Positions 1,754 through 64,000 of a stretch of DNA of 64,000 nt are shown piece by piece. The translations under genes and the position numbers were made by a program. The DNA comes from Actinomycetota bacterium (GTDB taxonomy: Bacteria; Actinomycetota; AC-67), in NCBI GenBank assembly GCA_036398095.1, contig DASWHR010000027.1:8174-72173 (forward strand), in the 5' to 3' direction. Positions within the stretch are counted from its first letter, which is position 1. Each line of letters starts with the position of its first letter. The notes under the pieces are model-generated. The model was given only the letters and a program-made list of their open reading frames with translations, was not told the DNA's origin and did no database searches.

Positions 1754-2080
1754 CTAGGAGAGGATCTCGCGCAGGCCCTTCAAGGCCGTCGGGACCACCC
1801 GGTAGTAGGTCCAGGTACCGCGGCGCTCGCGCTCGAGCAACCCGGCCTCGGTCAGGACCCGCAGGTGGTGGGTGACGGTCGGCTGCGTCAGGCCGAGGGG
1901 AACGACAAGGTCGCAGGTGCAGGCCTCGCGACCCGGCTGGGCGGCGATGAGCGACAGCAGCCGCAGGCGGGCCGGATCGGCAATGACCTTGAAGGCGGCG
2001 GCCGCCCGTTCGGCGTCCCGTTTGGTCAGCGGGGAGTCGAGGACCGAGCAGCATTCCAGGACGGGCACAGAACTTTTCAC
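1754..2080 (-). CDS. arsR: ArsR/SmtB-family metalloregulator
   Basis: It has a winged-HTH and the canonical metal(loid)-binding ELCVCDL-type motif, here EACTCDLVVPL, plus an N-terminal CC pair. The listed ORF (to 2176) runs through the AT-rich intergenic region, so I trimmed it to the GTG at 2078-2080. The gene is divergent from a CadI/ArsI-like gene. Confidence 0.8.
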   Translation of the reverse strand: MKSSVPVLECCSVLDSPLTKRDAERAAAAFKVIADPARLRLLSLIAAQPGREACTCDLVVPLGLTQPTVTHHLRVLTEAGLLERERRGTWTYYRVVPTALKGLREILS

Positions 2081-2223
2081 CCCTGGATATTGACAGACAT
2101 CTATATGATGCGTCAAGATGCTGCCCAGAAGATATCGATGAAGGTCGATATAGATATCTGTGGATATCGATGCCAATGGATATTGATGTGGGTCGATGTG
2201 GATGGAAGTGGAGGGAGGACGTC
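2081..2223. promoter_or_regulatory. AT-rich divergent promoter/operator region between arsR and cadI-like genes
   Basis: About 45% GC in a ~70% GC background. It contains many GATAT/ATATC/GGATAT(T/C)GA repeats, including the inverted repeat TCGATAT-N12-ATATCGA around 2143-2170. A GGAGG RBS precedes the ATG at 2224. Confidence 0.6.
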
Positions 2224-2619
2224 ATGGGACGAGTGCAACTGGCCATCAACGTGCGCGACGTGGACGAGGCGATCGCGTTCTACTCGAAGCTGTTCGACAC
2301 CGAGCCGGCCAAGGTCAAGCCCGGCTACGCCAACTTCGCGATCGCGGACCCGCCGCTCAAGCTGGTCCTGATCCAAAACGAGGCTGCGCCCGGCACGCTG
2401 AATCATCTCGGAGTTGAGGTCGCCGGCCGCGACGAGGTCGCCGCCGCAACCAAGCGACTGTCCGCCAAGGGTCTCGCCACGGTCACCGAGCAAGGCGCCT
2501 GCTGCTACGCCGAGCAGGACAAGGTTTGGGTCACCGACCCGGGCGGCGCGTCCTGGGAGGTCTACACCGTCCTCAAGGACGCTGAGGTGATGTCCCCGTC
2601 GGGCACCGCCTGCTGCTGA
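2224..2619 (+). CDS. cadI: CadI/ArsI-family VOC (glyoxalase-fold) metalloprotein
   Basis: MGRVQLAINVRDVDEAIAFYSKLFDTEPAKVKPGYANFAIADPPLKLVLI...TEQGACCYAEQDKVWVTDPGGASWEVYTV is near-collinear with the mycobacterial CadI (Rv2641) sequence as I recall it and with ArsI C-As lyases. The vicinal Cys-Cys is conserved. An extra C-terminal SPSGTACC tail is present. I trimmed the listed 2170 start to the ATG at 2224, which follows a GGAGG. Confidence 0.8.
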   Translation: MGRVQLAINVRDVDEAIAFYSKLFDTEPAKVKPGYANFAIADPPLKLVLIQNEAAPGTLNHLGVEVAGRDEVAAATKRLSAKGLATVTEQGACCYAEQDKVWVTDPGGASWEVYTVLKDAEVMSPSGTACC

Positions 2620-3227: not shown

Positions 3228-4139
3228 TCAGCGCGTGATGGTGCTTCCGAGGAGGATTCCGTTGGCCCAGTAGGCGCCGGTTGGCCCGTCCGGAAGCAGG
3301 TCGTAGGTCGCGGATGCCTCGCGCCAAACGACATCGATGCCTTCGACGGTCGCGCCGTCCATCGGGTCCCCGGCCGCGAGCGCTCCGATGGGCCGGCCGC
3401 GGGCGTCGGGATGGGCGGATGCCGCGACCAGAACGCGGCCGTCGCTGAGCGTCAGGCGCAGCATCGGATGAGGCGATCCGACCGGACGCCGAACCGTCCG
3501 AAGGACCGGCGCGGCCACGCGGCGCCCGCGCGCGTCCATCGTCCATACAAGATCGCCGGAGCGGAGCGTGGTCACGTCGCGATCCCCCGACGGTGTCGCG
3601 ATCAGCGTGCCGGCCGCCAGGCAGATCGGACAGAACGCGTCGACGGGTCGCTGCGTCGCGACGTGAATCGAGCCGTTGCGGGCGATCGTGCCGTCGATCG
3701 CGGTCGCGTCGCCTTCGGTCCCCTCGTTAACGGTGAACCGCCAAGCGGCATCCGATGAGGTCAGCGCGATCACCCGGATTCGCTTGTGCACTTCGTAGAT
3801 GCGCATCGTCTGGTCGTCGGTGAGCGGCTCGCGATAGCCGAGCGACGCGCGGATCGCGGCGGCTTCCCTGGATCGTTCCGCGATTCGGTACCACGCGAGG
3901 CCGCGCTCGCGGCGCTCCTGCGGTCCGACGCCGACCGGATAATCGTCGGGATCGCAGAAGAAGATGTCGAAGCGCTCGTCCAGGGCGAGGCGCGCGTCCC
4001 ACTCGTCGGTGATCACGCCGCCGCTCGCCTGCGGCGAGGCCGACGGCGAAGGGGAGGCCGACGGCTCCGTGCGCTGTGGCCGATACGTGCAGGCGCCGGC
4101 AACCAGGGCCAGCAGCGCGACGAGCGCGATCCGCTTCAC
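3228..4139 (-). CDS. lipoprotein with C-terminal Hint (Hedgehog/intein-like) domain
   Basis: Lipobox VKRIALVALLALVAGAC, then a Ser/Pro-rich linker. The C-terminal block CPICLAAGTLIATPSGDRDVTTLRSGDLVW...LLPDGPTGAYWANGILLGST looks like a Hint module. The GTG start at 4139 overlaps the TGA of the upstream oxidoreductase (GTGA). Confidence 0.65.
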   Translation of the reverse strand: MKRIALVALLALVAGACTYRPQRTEPSASPSPSASPQASGGVITDEWDARLALDERFDIFFCDPDDYPVGVGPQERRERGLAWYRIAERSREAAAIRASLGYREPLTDDQTMRIYEVHKRIRVIALTSSDAAWRFTVNEGTEGDATAIDGTIARNGSIHVATQRPVDAFCPICLAAGTLIATPSGDRDVTTLRSGDLVWTMDARGRRVAAPVLRTVRRPVGSPHPMLRLTLSDGRVLVAASAHPDARGRPIGALAAGDPMDGATVEGIDVVWREASATYDLLPDGPTGAYWANGILLGSTITR

Positions 4140-5656
4140 GCTCCCAGCGCCACCCGCGCGGCGTTGCGGCCGGCTGTGCCCATCACGCCGCCGCCCGGCC
4201 GCGCTCCCGATCCGCACAGATACAGCCCCTCGATCGGTGTGCGGTAGTCGAAGCGCTCGCCGAAGGACTGCTCGGGCGTGATGGCGCCGTGAAAGATGTC
4301 ACCGCCGGTCAGCGCGAGCCGCTCTTCCAGGTCCGGCGCCGCGAGCACGTCCTCGGCCACGATCGCATCGCGAAGGTTCGGCGCGTAGGCCGCCAGCGCC
4401 GCCACCGCATTCTCGCGCGCTGCGGCGCGAACCAGGTCCCAATCCTCCGGAAGCGACGGCGCGTACTGCGTGAACGCGCTGAGCACGTGCCGGCCGGCCG
4501 GCGCCAGGGTCGGGTCGGTCGAGGACTGAAGAAAGACCTCCATGTACGGCCGCGGCGAGGGCATCGCGCCGCGAGCGTCCTCGCGCGCCTGCTGGATGTA
4601 TTCGATCGAAGGACAGATCTCGACCGTGCCGAAATGCTGCGACGCCGGCTCGGTTCCCGGCAGCATCGAAAACGACGGCAGCTCGCTCAGCGCCAGGTTC
4701 ACCTTCACCACCGCGCCCTCGTAGCGCCACGACGCGACCCGCTCGGCGAACGGCGACGGCAGCAGTCCCTCATCCAGCAAAGAACCGAACGTGACCGCCG
4801 GCGTCGCATTCGACAGCACCATCGGCGCTTCGACCAGCTTCCCGCCGGCAACCTCCACGCCTCGCACCCGCCCGCCGTCCACCACGATCCGCGCAACCGG
4901 CGACGAGACGCGGATGACCGCGCCCGCCTCACGCGCCGCCGCCGCGATCGCCTGCGTCACGCCGCCCATCCCGCCGCGCACGTACGCCCACGTCCCGTCC
5001 ATGCCGTTCAGCTCGCCGCCGATCGCGTGGAACGTCATGATCCAAGCGGTGCCGTCCTCCTCCGGCCCCAGCGCCGTCCCGATGATCCCTTGCCCGGCCA
5101 TCGGTCCTTGGATCTCGGGCGCGCCGAAGAACGAGCGCACCGTGCCGGCGCACGAGCCCGACACGCACATCCGGTACATCTCGTCTCCCAACGCGGCCCG
5201 CACGCCGTCCAGACCCGGCGGATCGGGCGACTCGACGAGCGGGCGGATCGCGGCGACCGCATCATCCCAGAATGCGCTCCAGCGCTTGTGTGCGTCCGCG
5301 TCGGCGGGACTGATCTTCGACAGCTCCGCGCGCGTGCGCTCGCCGTCGCGCCACACGAAGTAGTGGCGGCCGTCGGGCAGCGGCACGAACATCTGCGGAT
5401 CCTTCGGCGTGAACACCAGGCCGTGACGCGCCAGCTCCAGCTCGCGGTAGACGTCCGGCCGCAGCAGCGACAGCGAATACGACGCGGTCGAGATCCGGTA
5501 GCCCGGCGCGAGCTCTTCGGTGACGGCCGCGCCGCCGATCACGTCGCGCCGTTCCAACACCAGCACGCGCTTGCCGGCGCGCGCCAAGTAGGCGGCGGCG
5601 ACCAGTCCGTTGTGGCCGGCGCCGATCACGATCACGTCGTGTCGTTCGGCGATCAT
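4136..5656 (-). CDS. phytoene-desaturase (CrtI)-like FAD/NAD(P)-dependent oxidoreductase
   Basis: N-terminal Rossmann motif DVIVIGAGHNGLVAAAYLARAGKRVLVLE. About 500 aa with a C-terminal GSGARPGGGVMG motif typical of the CrtI/amine-oxidase fold. Confidence 0.75.
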   Translation of the reverse strand: MIAERHDVIVIGAGHNGLVAAAYLARAGKRVLVLERRDVIGGAAVTEELAPGYRISTASYSLSLLRPDVYRELELARHGLVFTPKDPQMFVPLPDGRHYFVWRDGERTRAELSKISPADADAHKRWSAFWDDAVAAIRPLVESPDPPGLDGVRAALGDEMYRMCVSGSCAGTVRSFFGAPEIQGPMAGQGIIGTALGPEEDGTAWIMTFHAIGGELNGMDGTWAYVRGGMGGVTQAIAAAAREAGAVIRVSSPVARIVVDGGRVRGVEVAGGKLVEAPMVLSNATPAVTFGSLLDEGLLPSPFAERVASWRYEGAVVKVNLALSELPSFSMLPGTEPASQHFGTVEICPSIEYIQQAREDARGAMPSPRPYMEVFLQSSTDPTLAPAGRHVLSAFTQYAPSLPEDWDLVRAAARENAVAALAAYAPNLRDAIVAEDVLAAPDLEERLALTGGDIFHGAITPEQSFGERFDYRTPIEGLYLCGSGARPGGGVMGTAGRNAARVALGA

Positions 5657-5696: not shown

Positions 5697-6725
5697 CTAC
5701 GACCATTGGATGCGCTCGAGCGCGCCGTCGCCGACGAGCGAAGCGAACGCGGCGGCGAGCGCGGGATCCAGATGATTGCCGGCGAGGCGTTCGATCTCGG
5801 CCAGCGATCGTTCGACCGGCCACCGCTTCTTGTAGGGACGCTCGTGCGTGAGCGCGTCGAAGACGTCGGTCACGGCGACGATCCGCGCGCTCAGCGGAAT
5901 GTCCTCGCCGGCGAAACCGGCCGGATAGCCGGCGCCATCCCAGCGCTCGTGGTGGAACAGTGCGATCTCTTGCGCGGCCTTCAACACGGCCGCGTGGCTG
6001 CCCCACAGGATCCGGCCGCCGATCACGGTGTGGGCGCGAACGCGTGCGAACTCGGACTCGTCCAGCGGTCCGGGCTTGAGCAGCGTCGCGTCCGGAATGC
6101 CGATCTTTCCGATGTCGTGCAGCGGCGCCGCAAGCCGGATCGTCTCGCACTCGCCGGCCGCCAGTCCGGCCGCCTCGGCGAGCAGTCCCGACGTTTCGCC
6201 GACGCGGCGCGTGTGCGCTGCCGTGTCGTCGTCGCGGTATTCGGCGGCGCGCACGAGCCGGTCCAGCACTTCGCGCCGCGCGTCCTCCAACTCGCCGGTC
6301 CGCTGACGCACCTGCTCTTCGAGCAGCGCGCCGGTGTCGGTCAGCAACCGGCGCAGCGCCACCGCCTCGAGTGCGCCGCGGACCCGTGCGATCAGCGTCG
6401 CTCGGTCGGCCGGATCCGCGATTGTGTCGCGCGCGCCTGCGGCCAGCAGCCGCGCCGAATCCGCCGCCGTCGCCGCCACGGCCAGCGTTGCGGCATCCCC
6501 CAGCAAGCGCAGCACGTCGACGGCTTCGTCGGGCGGCGCGTCCACGATTGTCAGCGCGACCGGCGTGAGCCCGGCCGGCGCGAGGCGCCCTGCGGGCTCG
6601 GTCCGGATCGCGGTGAAGCCGGCAGCGCGAAGCATGGTCGCGATCGCGTCCGAAGAGGACACCACCGCGATGGCCATCGCGGTGACGTTCCCGGGCGGCG
6701 GGACCGGGCTGCGCTGCGCGCTCAT
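5697..6725 (-). CDS. HD-GYP domain c-di-GMP phosphodiesterase with REC-like N-terminal domain
   Basis: HD motif HDIGKIGIP and GYP motif DGAGYPAG are present. I trimmed the listed ORF (to 7061) to the ATG at 6725 (MSAQRS...), because its upstream part is Arg/Pro-rich frame noise. The exact start is uncertain; an MAIAVV start is also possible. Confidence 0.7.
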   Translation of the reverse strand: MSAQRSPVPPPGNVTAMAIAVVSSSDAIATMLRAAGFTAIRTEPAGRLAPAGLTPVALTIVDAPPDEAVDVLRLLGDAATLAVAATAADSARLLAAGARDTIADPADRATLIARVRGALEAVALRRLLTDTGALLEEQVRQRTGELEDARREVLDRLVRAAEYRDDDTAAHTRRVGETSGLLAEAAGLAAGECETIRLAAPLHDIGKIGIPDATLLKPGPLDESEFARVRAHTVIGGRILWGSHAAVLKAAQEIALFHHERWDGAGYPAGFAGEDIPLSARIVAVTDVFDALTHERPYKKRWPVERSLAEIERLAGNHLDPALAAAFASLVGDGALERIQWS

Positions 6726-7868: not shown

Positions 7869-8225
7869 TGTGGCCCCCGACCGGGGCGGCAACGCAAGGA
7901 TTCGGACGAAACTTTCTTAGCGGACAACCCTCAGGTTCTTGACGATTCGTCGCGAAACGATCACAATGCTACGGCGCGGTAGGTTTTCGCGCCCGGCCGA
8001 TCCGGCGGCGATCCCGACTGGACGGAAGGATTCCGGCGAGAGAGTCACGAACTAGACACCACGCACCGCATGCAGCAAACGTTGAAGAAACCGACCCGGG
8101 AGCCGGCCATGATTCGTTGGAAGCGTTCATGGGAGGACCTGTCCGAGGCCCTTCCGCTCGACGTAATGCCTTGCTCGAACGGCGAGTTCTATCCGCCGCC
8201 CCCGACCAAGGAACAAAGAGCCGTC

Positions 8226-10034
8226 ATGGAGATCGCCGACCGCGAGGTCGAGCGCGTCCGCAAGAAGTTCAACATGAACCGCCGCGACTTCGTTCGCACC
8301 ACCGCGGCCATGGCGATCTGCTTCTGGGCCCGCGACGTCGTCATCGGCGGCGGCGGCGCGCAGGCGCACAACACCACCACCACCGACGCATGCGATCTTG
8401 AATGGGAAGAAGAAGTCGGCCTGTTCACCCTCAACAACCTGCCGGGCGAGTTCGTCTTCGACATCCAGTCCCACCACGTCGAGTCCGACGGCATGTGGCG
8501 CGTCACCAACCCCGGCTTCCACGCGTTCTTCGCCGGGATCTGGTCGCAGGCCGGTCCGATCACCGGTGCGCGCCCGGGCATGCGCAGCGGCGGCAACCTC
8601 GATCCCGGATCGAGCAACTTCGCGGTGCGCGGCGCCGGCGCCGGCGAACTCGACCCGATCGAAAACCTGTCGCGCTTCCACTACATGAAAGAGCTGTTCC
8701 TGGATTCGGCGACGACGATGACGGTGCTCTCGGCCGTGCCGGCCGCGCCCGACATCACCCAGCCGCTGCCGATCGAGCGCGCTGCGCTGACCGTGCAGAT
8801 GGTCAACGAGCTCGCCGGATCGCAGCGCACGGTCATGCACGCGTTCGCGATGCCGAACCGCGGCTCGGCCGGGACCATCGCCTCGTCGCTGGGCCAAGAG
8901 CCCGTCTACATGCAGCGCGAATTCGAGATCATGGAGGAGCGCGCGGTCAAGTACGGTTCGATCATCCGCGGCTGGAAGACCTACCCCGCATGGGGTGACA
9001 TTCCCTACGCGAGCGGCTGGTTCTTCGACGACGAGCTGGTCGGGCAGCGCTTCATCGACCACGTTCGCGCCCTCAGCCAGAAGTACCCGAAGCTGCCGCC
9101 GAACATCGCGACGCACAAGGGCTTCGCGCTTCCCGCGTTCGACCAGCGGGCCGCCTCGCCCCGCGACATCGGCCCCGCCGCTTCCCGCAACCCGGATGTG
9201 AACTTCATCGTCTACCATTCGGGCTTCGACGGCGAGACCGTCGGCCCCTACGGCGGCGACACGGCCGATATCTCCACCGACGGCGCCAAGGGCGACCGCC
9301 GCGTGAGTTCGGCCGACCGTATGGTGGACTCGCTGATCAAGTCGCTTCGCGAGAACAACTGGGACGCGACCCGCTTCGGCACCGTGCCGGGCGTCAAGTG
9401 GGCGAACGTGCCAAACGTCTTCGCCGAGATCGGCTCGACCTGGCGCGACGTCATGGGCCAGATCCGCCGCGGCGAGCCCGTCTCAAGCACACCGGCCGCC
9501 GCGATCCATCTGCTCGGCAAGCTCATCACCTACGTCGGTCCGAAGCGGATCGCGTGGGGAACCGACTCGCTGTGGTTCGGATCGCCGCACTCCGAGATCG
9601 TCGGCTTGAGGCGCGTGGACTACAGCCACGCGCCCGGGCTGTGGGACTTCTACAAGCTCCCGTACGCGATCGACGGTGACGCCGACGACCCGCGGGTGGA
9701 CACGCGCAACTGGGTCAACTACACGCCGTCGTCGTCGAACGCGTCGCTGCCGGGCTGGCCGACGGATTCCAAGGCCCACCCCGAGCGGTCGATCCGCAAC
9801 TGGATCTTCGGCCGCTCCGCCGCCGAGGTGTATCGCGTCGACGCCGACGCGCACATGCTCGACCGGGGCACGCATCCGCTCAAGTGCGACGAGGTGCAGA
9901 AGATCCGCGACGCCTACATCGTGAACCAGTACACGCCGAAGGAGCAGGTGCCGATGGCGTCCAACACGCTGATCGGTGCGCGCACTGCCTCCGAGCTCAA
10001 AACCGAAAGGATGAATCAGCCGTGGGCGCCGTAA
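8226..10034 (+). CDS. Tat-exported amidohydrolase-family metal-dependent hydrolase
   Basis: Twin-arginine motif NRRDFVRTTAAMAICFWA. The C-terminal part (WGTDSLWFGSPHSEI) resembles the amidohydrolase TIM-barrel family. The listed ORF starts at 8070, but codons 8070-8225 are A/T-ending and look non-coding. From the ATG at 8226, GC3 is typical of the other genes. Confidence 0.55.
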   Translation: MEIADREVERVRKKFNMNRRDFVRTTAAMAICFWARDVVIGGGGAQAHNTTTTDACDLEWEEEVGLFTLNNLPGEFVFDIQSHHVESDGMWRVTNPGFHAFFAGIWSQAGPITGARPGMRSGGNLDPGSSNFAVRGAGAGELDPIENLSRFHYMKELFLDSATTMTVLSAVPAAPDITQPLPIERAALTVQMVNELAGSQRTVMHAFAMPNRGSAGTIASSLGQEPVYMQREFEIMEERAVKYGSIIRGWKTYPAWGDIPYASGWFFDDELVGQRFIDHVRALSQKYPKLPPNIATHKGFALPAFDQRAASPRDIGPAASRNPDVNFIVYHSGFDGETVGPYGGDTADISTDGAKGDRRVSSADRMVDSLIKSLRENNWDATRFGTVPGVKWANVPNVFAEIGSTWRDVMGQIRRGEPVSSTPAAAIHLLGKLITYVGPKRIAWGTDSLWFGSPHSEIVGLRRVDYSHAPGLWDFYKLPYAIDGDADDPRVDTRNWVNYTPSSSNASLPGWPTDSKAHPERSIRNWIFGRSAAEVYRVDADAHMLDRGTHPLKCDEVQKIRDAYIVNQYTPKEQVPMASNTLIGARTASELKTERMNQPWAP

Positions 10035-63032: not shown

Positions 63033-63295
63033 AGCGCTCCGCTGTCCACTGGGGACGGCGGGAACTCGACCAAACTCCTACCCGAGATTTGGGTTGGTGT
63101 TTGGTCGCTGTCTGCGCCTTGAAAACCGCATAGCGAGGACACGCGATTCGATCCGGGCCGGAAGAGCTTTCGGGTTCGACCGGACCGGGGGAACGCAAGT
63201 GAGAGCGGGCACCCTTTTGTAACGCCTTGTTAGAGATCAGCACCGACGGCAACCAAGGAGCTTCGGCCCCGAGGAAGCCGGCGGTGAGAAACCTC

Positions 63296-64000
<705 letters not shown>

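What the first reader, a model, noticed from the sequence alone, without database searches (positions are those of the whole stretch)
3228..5656. Hint-domain lipoprotein translationally coupled to a CrtI-like flavin oxidoreductase
The start of the 3228..4139 lipoprotein overlaps the stop of the FAD oxidoreductase (GTGA). Its C-terminal ~130 aa look like a Hint (Hedgehog/intein) autoprocessing module (CPICLAAGTLIATP ... ANGILLGST) with no extein after it. Its N-terminal ~190 aa domain is unrecognised. A secreted Hint-terminated protein co-expressed with a cytoplasmic-type flavoenzyme is an unusual pairing. It may mark a self-cleaving or cholesterol-transferase-like surface system.
Basis: partly seen in the sequence, partly recalled or inferred. 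Interest (0 to 1): 0.6.

Follow-up and report, generated by a model that had tools for sequence, protein, structure and literature searches.

The report
Self-cleaving Hint lipoprotein beside unrelated flavoenzyme
The gene encodes a real surface lipoprotein ending in a Hedgehog/intein-type self-cleaving module and belongs to a widespread, unstudied bacterial family, but its overlap with the flavin enzyme gene is a local accident of gene order, not a conserved two-gene system.

Summary

The pairing is not supported. None of 89 homologue loci carries the FAD gene. The closest FAD orthologues (84% and 70% identity) sit in the same gene order but lack the Hint gene. The conserved partner of the FAD gene is the upstream HD_5 gene.

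The protein belongs to a family found mainly in Chloroflexota and Actinomycetota. Its layout is a lipobox, a Pro/Thr/Ser-rich linker, an uncharacterised ~125-aa domain with an FFCDPDxYP motif, then CPI|C and a terminal Hint. Cys1, the block-B His and the block-F Asp are invariant, but the intein C-terminal His-Asn is missing.

About 27 complete homologues lack the Hint and stop exactly at Cys-Pro-x, the predicted cleavage product. Most likely the Hint removes itself by N-terminal cleavage and leaves an envelope-tethered domain. Interest is moderate.

The parts
3228..4139 (-). Whole gene for the 303-aa Hint-terminated lipoprotein, stop codon included
   Evidence: ORF list. An identical 303-aa protein is annotated by NCBI as 'Hint domain-containing protein', MAG Actinomycetota.
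4089..4139 (-). Signal peptide with lipobox (VKRIALVALLALVAGAC; Cys17 is the lipidated residue)
   Evidence: Translation. Cys17 is at least 90% conserved in 96 homologues. The lipobox rule is from established knowledge.
4011..4088 (-). Low-complexity Pro/Ser-rich linker (residues 18-43)
   Evidence: Alignment A1 shows Pro/Thr/Ser-rich linkers of variable length in all homologues. pLDDT is 54-61 here.
3624..4010 (-). Uncharacterised ~125-aa alpha+beta cargo domain (residues 44-172). It carries the FFCDPDxYP motif and ends Cys170-Pro-Ile172.
3621..3623 (-). Cys173 codon (TGC): Hint position 1, the predicted nucleophile. The scissile bond is Ile172|Cys173.
   Evidence: Translation gives CPICLAA. 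Cys173 is invariant in 96 sequences. Hint-less homologues stop at exactly this codon.
3231..3623 (-). Hint (Hedgehog/intein-like, BIL-type) autoprocessing domain, residues 173-303. Four residues (TITR) follow the Gly-Ser that aligns with the intein His-Asn.
4136..4139 (-). GTGA overlap of the Hint gene start with the FAD gene stop
   Evidence: Sequence.
4136..5656 (-). Neighbouring gene, not part of the Hint system: a cytoplasmic CrtI/amine-oxidase-family FAD oxidoreductase of unknown substrate
   Evidence: Pfam Amino_oxidase and NAD_binding_8. NCBIfam CrtO scores 244 bits against a cut-off of 1000, and crtI_fam 114 against 238. Orthologues in syntenic loci lack the Hint gene.
5697..6725 (-). 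HD_5 (HD-GYP-like) gene, the conserved upstream partner of the FAD gene
   Evidence: Pfam HD_5 114.5 bits. Gene call of 342 aa. HD_5 and FAD are adjacent and overlapping in L097, L098 and L099.

Best explanation
The gene encodes an exported, N-terminally lipid-anchored envelope protein of an uncharacterised family found mainly in Chloroflexota and Actinomycetota. After export, a ~125-aa alpha+beta domain folds. Inference: this domain is stapled by a Cys62-Cys170 disulfide. The C-terminal Hint domain then performs the first Hint reaction, an N-to-S acyl shift of the Ile172-Cys173 peptide bond onto Cys173, assisted by His243 (block B) and Asp280 (block F). There is no C-terminal Asn, no +1 nucleophile and no C-extein, so splicing is impossible. 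The thioester is resolved by water, or by a small nucleophile. This releases the ~14-kDa Hint domain and leaves the cargo domain tethered to the membrane by its lipid and linker, with a new C-terminus ...Cys-Pro-Ile. The Hint thus acts as a single-turnover, self-removing pro-domain. The cargo domain works in the cell envelope or wall; its biochemical activity is unknown. What is shown here: the Hint fold, the conserved catalytic residues, the architecture, the lack of a conserved partner gene, and natural Hint-less forms that end at the junction. What is inferred: that cleavage occurs, that it is hydrolytic, and the disulfide. The overlap with the FAD oxidoreductase gene reflects gene order in this lineage, not a shared function.
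For: Hint fold and family membership. Cys173, His243, Thr278 and Asp280 are invariant across 96 homologues at about 40% identity. Block alignments to Hedgehog (S/T-x-x-H) and to the intein block F 'YDLL' support the residue assignments. The architecture of lipobox, linker, N-domain and terminal Hint is kept in all 120 best hits, with 72-100% query coverage (>=81% for all but one). Of 136 further cluster representatives found with the N-domain profile alone, 97 carry the Hint. 27 complete proteins have their own signal peptide or lipobox, lack the Hint, and terminate at C-P-x (one ends at C-P), the residue before Cys1. These lie scattered among Hint-bearing relatives at up to 89% identity, and they also form older two-domain lineages. 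DNA was checked in three cases. P0175 reads ...TCPL-TGA with no Hint downstream. P0133 reads ...ACPN-stop followed by a decayed 'PAAHTQIDAP' remnant. L100 reads ...CPI-TGA followed by an intact 134-aa Hint. Stops concentrated on this one codon show that the N-domain ending at residue -1 is the selected functional product. Cys62 and Cys170 are both present in 189 sequences and both lost in 2, while Cys1 stays. Some members replace or add to the lipid anchor with PG_binding_1, PEGA or CarboxypepD_reg domains, which points to the envelope or wall. No conserved neighbour gene was found in 89 loci. Published work reports that B-type BIL domains keep all intein motifs except the C-terminal one and cleave at their N-terminus (PMC7765530).
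Against: There is no experimental evidence of cleavage for any member. In the window protein and its actinobacterial subgroup the Ser/Thr of block B 'TxxH' is Ala (AASAHP), which could slow the acyl shift. Pfam Hint_2 aligns only to profile positions 1-46 of 147, so this is a divergent branch. Extracytoplasmic hydrolysis of Hint thioesters is usually slow without a nucleophile. If the free C-terminus is sufficient, it is unclear why most lineages keep the Hint. I could not read model coordinates, so the Cys62-Cys170 distance is unverified. One sequence (P0015) has lost Cys62 but kept Cys170.
Confidence: 0.62

Rival explanations
1. Hedgehog-like transfer. The Ile172 thioester is attacked by an envelope nucleophile rather than water, such as a lipid hydroxyl or amine, or a peptidoglycan stem-peptide amine. 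The N-terminally lipidated domain would then also be attached covalently at its C-terminus.
For: The architecture parallels Hedgehog: a lipidated N-terminal cargo followed directly by a C-terminal Hint. Most lineages retain the Hint despite viable Hint-less forms. Some members carry peptidoglycan-binding domains, which places the protein at the wall.
Against: There is no sterol- or adduct-recognition region: the tail beyond the conserved G/A-S-T motif has a median of 3 aa. The Hedgehog cholesterol-activating Asp aligns to a variable position. About 27 independent Hint-less proteins encode the free-carboxylate product directly and keep the cargo domain intact. No conserved lipid-synthesis or transferase neighbour exists.
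Confidence: 0.12
2. The FAD oxidoreductase and the Hint lipoprotein form a functional two-gene system. The flavoenzyme might, for example, make or modify the molecule that the Hint transfers.
For: There is a 4-nt start/stop overlap with no room for a separate promoter, so co-transcription in this genome is likely. The arrangement is identical in three contigs carrying the identical proteins.
Against: 0 of 89 homologue loci have the FAD gene. The closest homologue has a different upstream gene. FAD orthologues at 84% and 70% identity, in conserved synteny, lack the Hint gene. Overlaps are common in this genome: 3 of 9 same-strand pairs. The FAD protein has no signal peptide, while the Hint protein is exported.
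Confidence: 0.04
3. The Hint domain is retained as a non-cleaving structural or binding module, and the protein works as an intact two-domain lipoprotein.
For: Block B lacks Ser/Thr in the window protein. The C-terminal His-Asn is absent. No cleavage data exist.
Against: The exact residues needed for the N-S acyl shift (Cys1, block-B His, block-F Asp) are invariant over a family at about 40% identity. Hint-less forms terminate precisely at the scissile bond rather than at domain-neutral positions.
Confidence: 0.12
4. Redox-gated cleavage. The invariant Cys170-Pro-Ile-Cys173 is a CxxC 'redox trap' whose disulfide blocks the acyl shift until reduction, as described for some inteins with a Cys at position -3 (from my own knowledge, not checked in the literature here).
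For: CPIC is present in 199 of 210 junctions. The protein folds in an oxidising compartment.
Against: Cys170 is kept in Hint-less proteins that have no Cys173. It is lost together with Cys62, not with Cys173, in P0171 and P0270. This points to a Cys62-Cys170 pair. The trap could still form transiently.
Confidence: 0.08
5. It is a polymorphic-toxin or effector protein in which the Hint releases a toxin.
For: HINT peptidases are common releasing domains in Sec-exported polymorphic toxins (PMC3482391).
Against: In those proteins the HINT sits just before a C-terminal toxin domain, whereas here nothing follows it. The cargo domain is conserved rather than polymorphic. No immunity-like neighbour is conserved. 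There is no PADLOC hit.
Confidence: 0.02

Closest known systems
B-type bacterial intein-like (BIL) domains / Pfam Hint_2 (PF13403)
   Same: Bacterial and present in exported proteins. The N-terminal Cys and intein blocks A, B and F are present, while the C-terminal His-Asn motif is absent. The expected chemistry is N-terminal cleavage without splicing.
   Different: BILs were described in hypervariable regions of non-conserved proteins (PMC7765530). Here the Hint is fixed to one conserved cargo domain in a coherent family. Only the first third of the Hint_2 profile aligns. The taxa are Chloroflexota and Actinomycetota.
Hedgehog / Hog proteins (Hint followed by a sterol-recognition region)
   Different: There is no SRR/ARR after the Hint. 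The Hedgehog general-base Asp is not conserved. The cargo domain is unrelated to the Hedge domain: no LAS/zinc-hydrolase hits. The N-terminal lipid would be bacterial diacylglycerol rather than palmitate. Sequence identity is 19%.
Inteins (class 1 mini-inteins)
   Different: There is no C-extein, no terminal Asn and no +1 nucleophile, so no splicing is possible. It is not inserted in a host protein and has no homing endonuclease.
HINT releasing peptidases of polymorphic toxins (for example MafB or Rhs-type)
   Same: Sec-exported bacterial proteins that use a Hint for autoproteolysis.
   Different: Those Hints precede a variable C-terminal toxin. Here the Hint is the last domain and the conserved part lies upstream.

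Membership tests
Hint superfamily | Hint fold (all-beta horseshoe) | tested here: met
Hint superfamily | Nucleophile (Cys/Ser/Thr) at position 1 of the domain | tested here: met
   Cys173 is invariant in 96 homologues. The codon is TGC or TGT in 64 of 65 junction-motif matches in the 89 loci; the single TCC match lies elsewhere in locus L073 and is probably a chance match.
Hint superfamily | Block B T-x-x-H | tested here: inconclusive
   His243 is invariant. The -3 position is Ser in most members (SPGH, aligned to Hedgehog TPAH) but Ala in the window protein (AASAH).
Pfam Hint_2 (PF13403) | Score above the curated gathering threshold | tested here: met
   36.1 bits against 28.4 for the window protein, and 18 of 18 members match. 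The alignment covers only profile positions 1-46 of 147.
B-type BIL domain | All intein splicing motifs present except the C-terminal His-Asn motif, with N-terminal autocleavage | tested here: inconclusive
   The motif pattern fits: blocks A, B and F are present and the end is G-S-T instead of H-N-C/S/T. The original BIL-B profiles were not available and cleavage was not tested.
Intein | Inserted between N- and C-exteins, with terminal Asn and a +1 Cys/Ser/Thr, giving splicing | tested here: not met
   In this protein four residues (TITR) follow the Gly-Ser that aligns with the intein His-Asn. In the family the tail beyond the conserved G/A-S-T motif has a median of 3 aa, and no terminal His-Asn is present.
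Hedgehog/Hog | Sterol/adduct-recognition region of about 60-70 aa after the Hint | tested here: not met
   No member has more than 32 residues beyond the conserved G/A-S-T motif at the end of the Hint, and the median is 3.
Hedgehog/Hog | General-base Asp that activates the sterol hydroxyl (Asp46 of Hh-C, by my own reading of the alignment) | tested here: not met
   In the HMM alignment to Hedgehog Hint, this position falls on a variable Arg/Thr column of the family. The test is alignment-based only.
Bacterial lipoprotein | Signal peptide ending in a lipobox with invariant Cys | tested here: met
   VKRIALVALLALVAGAC has K/R near the start, an uncharged hydrophobic core and the sequence V-A-G-A-C. 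The Cys is conserved in at least 90% of members. Lipidation itself is not testable here.
Polymorphic toxin with HINT releasing peptidase | Variable toxin domain C-terminal to the HINT, with an adjacent immunity gene | tested here: not met
   Nothing follows the Hint, and no conserved neighbour exists in 89 loci.
CrtI/phytoene desaturase family (neighbour gene) | Score above the NCBIfam cut-offs for CrtI-family or CrtO models | tested here: not met
   crtI_fam scores 113.7 against 238.1, and CrtO 244 against 1000. Only the general Amino_oxidase and NAD_binding_8 Pfam families pass.

The most novel reading that the evidence does not exclude
The family is a prokaryotic counterpart of Hedgehog processing. 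An N-terminally lipidated envelope domain has its C-terminal Hint thioester resolved by an envelope molecule (a membrane lipid or a peptidoglycan amine). This would give a doubly anchored or wall-linked protein made without sortase. The Hint-less C-P-x forms would then be a derived, unmodified variant.
Probability: 0.1. Interest if true: 0.8.

Novelty: new variant of a known kind. Interest (0 to 1): 0.4.

Why it matters
Hint domains are best known from inteins and animal Hedgehog. Bacterial intein-like domains have been treated mostly as curiosities in variable proteins or as toxin-releasing peptidases. This gene belongs to a coherent family: 485 loci in the GTDB species-representative genome set (185,579 species), and 531 clusters at 50% identity. 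In this family a terminal Hint is permanently coupled to a single conserved, structurally unassigned envelope domain behind a lipid anchor. That layout is close to Hedgehog without the sterol module. Hint-less relatives that stop exactly at the scissile bond act as a natural experiment that defines the mature product. They also make the family an accessible system for asking why a self-removing domain is kept. For annotation, the practical point is negative: the GTGA overlap with the flavoenzyme should not be read as a functional link.

Tried and rejected
1. Conserved FAD-Hint pairing. I tested it from both sides and rejected it.

2. Any conserved neighbour gene. All-versus-all ORF clustering of 89 loci found none. 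The largest non-self cluster covered 17 loci and was heterogeneous.

3. Tandem paralogue arrays. I first inferred these from the BLAST cluster and wrote them in notebook entry 2. They were retracted after an HMM check showed exactly one N-domain/Hint ORF per locus; the extra ORFs were spurious stop-to-stop or antisense ORFs.

4. Stand-alone N-domain proteins as evidence of a separate family. Several turned out to be frameshift artefacts with the Hint in another frame, for example P0121. Only the C-P-x-terminated ones were kept as real.

5. Selenocysteine at Hint position 1. A whole-collection pattern scan for C-P-x-TGA followed by Hint motifs found a single contig, L100. It has no Rfam SECIS match. 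The downstream hairpin is not significant (z -1.84, 8 of 200 shuffles). It is treated as a recent nonsense allele.

6. CxxC redox trap. Made unlikely by the Cys62/Cys170 co-loss.

7. Searches with no informative result: plasmid collection, PADLOC for the Hint protein, the promoter/terminator scan, and literature searches for this family.

8. Recent horizontal transfer of the Hint gene. GC and GC3 match the neighbouring genes.

9. The afdb50 fold library was unavailable, so the N-domain was compared only with PDB structures.
Full report
OBSERVATION. On the minus strand the window carries a 506-aa ORF (5656..4136) and, overlapping its stop, a 303-aa ORF (4139..3228). The junction reads GGGAGC-GTGA-AGCGG, so the GTG start and the TGA stop share 4 nt. 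The short protein begins VKRIALVALLALVAGAC, a lipoprotein signal peptide with a lipobox. The Cys is conserved in at least 90% of 96 homologues. NCBI annotates the identical 303-aa protein, with the same start, as 'Hint domain-containing protein' from an Actinomycetota MAG.

The upstream protein matches Pfam Amino_oxidase and NAD_binding_8. It reaches no specific NCBIfam cut-off: CrtO scores 244 bits against 1000, and crtI_fam 114 against 238. It starts directly with the Rossmann motif and has no signal peptide. The sequence facts in the finding are therefore correct.

THE HINT DOMAIN IS REAL. Pfam Hint_2 (PF13403) scores 36.1 bits against a gathering cut-off of 28.4 on residues 172-217. PF01079 is sub-threshold at E 0.23. 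All 18 family members tested match Hint_2. A family profile finds inteins, Hedgehog Hint (1AT0/6TYY) and the Clostridium BIL domain 2LWY among PDB sequences.

The intein terminal His-Asn is replaced by Gly/Ala-Ser, followed by a conserved Thr. Beyond that Thr the tail has a median of 3 residues and a maximum of 32 in 163 members. So there is no C-extein and no Hedgehog-type sterol-recognition region. The Hedgehog cholesterol-activating Asp aligns to a variable column. This motif pattern is the one published for B-type bacterial intein-like domains, which cleave at their N-terminus but cannot splice (PMC7765530).

THE FAMILY. The best 120 database hits (39-51% identity) cover 72-100% of the query, 81% or more for all but one. 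They share one architecture: signal peptide with lipobox, a Pro/Thr/Ser-rich linker, a ~125-aa domain with the motif FFCDPDxYP(V/I)AR, then C-P-I-C-L-A-x-G-T and the Hint.

A scan of one genome per GTDB species found 485 loci. Of the best 80, about 66 are Chloroflexota MAGs (Anaerolineae, Dehalococcoidia, Chloroflexia) and 6 are Actinomycetota. The N-domain profile alone retrieves 531 clusters at 50% identity out of 1.84 billion proteins.

THE PAIRING IS NOT CONSERVED. Six homologue contexts inspected by hand contain no FAD oxidoreductase. tblastn of the window FAD protein against all 89 homologue loci (+-4-6 kb) gives zero hits. The closest homologue (51% identity, L008) shares the convergent DinB/MDMPI gene (73% identity) but has an unrelated upstream gene. 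ORF clustering finds no gene that recurs next to the family.

From the other side, the FAD orthologue at 84% identity (L097/L098) lies in an otherwise identical neighbourhood. That neighbourhood reads TetR, sigma/anti-sigma, cupredoxin, an 84-aa ORF, HD_5, FAD, then convergent DinB, glyoxalase, ArsR-like, a 212-aa ORF and Lhr. Its stop is only 27 nt from the DinB stop, and no Hint gene is present. The 70% orthologue (L099) also has HD_5 overlapping FAD and no Hint gene.

The conserved pair is therefore HD_5 and FAD. The Hint gene occupies the whole FAD-DinB spacer in this lineage only. Its GC and GC3 match the neighbouring genes, so there is no sign of recent transfer. Overlapping starts and stops are common here, in 3 of 9 same-strand neighbour pairs within +-10 kb. 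Co-transcription in this genome remains likely, but it is positional.

WHAT THE HINT DOES. Among 136 further cluster representatives found with the N-domain profile, 97 carry the Hint and 39 do not. Some of the 39 are assembly frameshifts; P0121, for example, has an intact Hint in another frame. However, 27 proteins with their own signal peptide or lipobox terminate at C-P-x (one ends at C-P), the residue before Cys1. They are scattered among Hint-bearing relatives at up to 89% identity, and they also include older two-N-domain lineages.

DNA from three cases shows a decay series. L100 has C-P-I-TGA followed by an intact 134-aa Hint. P0133 has C-P-N-stop followed by a degenerate 'PAAHTQIDAP' remnant. 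P0175 has C-P-L-TGA with no Hint left. Random pseudogenisation would scatter stops along the gene. Their concentration on the Cys1 codon (TGY to TGA is one step) indicates that selection keeps a cargo domain ending at residue -1. That is the product Hint N-cleavage would make. This is the main argument that the Hint is a self-removing module and that a free C-terminus is functional.

Cys170 (position -3) stays in the Hint-less proteins. It is lost together with Cys62 of the FFCDPD motif in two sequences that keep Cys1 (P0171 and P0270), against one single loss in P0015. The simplest reading is a structural Cys62-Cys170 disulfide with Cys173 as the free nucleophile, rather than a CxxC redox trap. 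I could not read model coordinates to check distances.

MECHANISM, WITH STATUS. Shown: the exported-lipoprotein signature, the Hint fold, the invariant residues for the N-S acyl shift, the absence of splicing and Hedgehog-specific elements, and natural products that end at the scissile bond. Inferred: after Sec export and lipidation, the Ile172-Cys173 bond is converted to a thioester and hydrolysed. The Hint is released, and the cargo domain stays on its lipid and linker tether with a ...Cys-Pro-Ile C-terminus.

Caveats are as follows. The block-B Ser/Thr is Ala in this protein. Only the first third of the Hint_2 profile aligns. No biochemical data exist. The reason most lineages retain the Hint is unexplained. 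The activity of the cargo domain is unknown; its invariant residues are Asp63, Asp65, Pro68, Lys119 and Gly156.

RIVALS. A Hedgehog-like transfer to a lipid or to peptidoglycan is not excluded, and it is the most novel reading (about 0.1). The missing adduct-recognition region and the Hint-less forms argue against it. A non-cleaving Hint, a redox-gated Hint and a toxin architecture are each less likely, as set out in the structured fields.

NOVELTY AND VERDICT. The Hint call is already in public annotation. What is new here is the definition of a coherent family with a fixed, unassigned cargo domain, the Hedgehog-like layout without a sterol module, and the recurrent truncation at Cys1. I rate it a new variant of a known kind and of moderate interest (0.4). 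It is worth a biochemical look by people who work on Hint or intein chemistry or on Chloroflexota/Actinomycetota envelopes, but it is not the two-gene system proposed.

Noticed in passing
window 5697-6725 (-) and 4136-5656 (-); L097 2997-5521, L098 2958-5521, L099 3327-5515: The HD_5 (HD-GYP-like) gene and the CrtI-like FAD oxidoreductase gene are adjacent in the window and in its 84% and 70% relatives. In the relatives they overlap by 10 and 4 nt. This is the conserved pair at the locus. Its function is unknown; it may link a signalling phosphodiesterase with a redox enzyme.
   Followed up: partly
L100 (JGI contig Ga0187771_10341478) 970-1016 (-): A family member has an in-frame TGA exactly at the Hint Cys1 codon (…SFNTCPI-TGA-LTKGTLIDTP…), followed by a complete 134-aa Hint ORF. 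It was the only such case in the JGI metagenome scan. A hairpin starts about 9 nt after the UGA (z -1.84), and there is no Rfam SECIS hit. It is most likely a recent nonsense allele, but selenocysteine is not formally excluded.
   Followed up: partly
P0230, P0239, P0245, P0251, P0266, P0303, P0329 and others; L090 3001-3405; L092 3001-3666: About 27 complete family proteins lack the Hint and end at Cys-Pro-x. They include ~330-aa lineages with two tandem cargo domains and ordinary (non-lipoprotein) signal peptides.
   Followed up: yes
P0171 and P0270 (family members): Cys62 (FFCDPD changed to WNDPD or YVDPD) and Cys170 (CPIC changed to HPIC or YPIC) are lost together while Cys1 is kept. This suggests a Cys62-Cys170 disulfide.
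   Followed up: partly
P0282, P0242, P0329, P0177, P0315: Some family members carry PG_binding_1 (one or two copies), PEGA or CarboxypepD_reg domains in front of the cargo domain. This points to a role at the cell wall or surface.
   Followed up: partly
L097 5519-5560: In the relative that lacks the Hint gene, the short FAD-DinB spacer consists of three direct copies of CGCGTCACAC right after the FAD stop codon. Whether this relates to gain or loss of the Hint gene is unknown.
   Followed up: no
window 63295-64000 (+): The 5' 701 nt of a bacterial 16S rRNA gene lies here (Rfam SSU_rRNA_bacteria, 650 bits) and is cut by the window end. It could place the organism phylogenetically.
   Followed up: no
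window 8109-10034 (+): A 641-aa ORF with no Pfam family on record. It contains an internal MNRRDFVRTTAAMA stretch that looks like a twin-arginine signal, so the true start may be downstream of the called one. A homologous ~640-aa gene sits at the same place in L099.
   Followed up: no
window 1754-2176 (-) and 2170-2619 (+): A divergent ArsR/HTH_20 regulator and a glyoxalase-fold protein ending in Cys-Cys. The arrangement resembles organoarsenical or metal resistance pairs. It is conserved in L097/L098.
   Followed up: no
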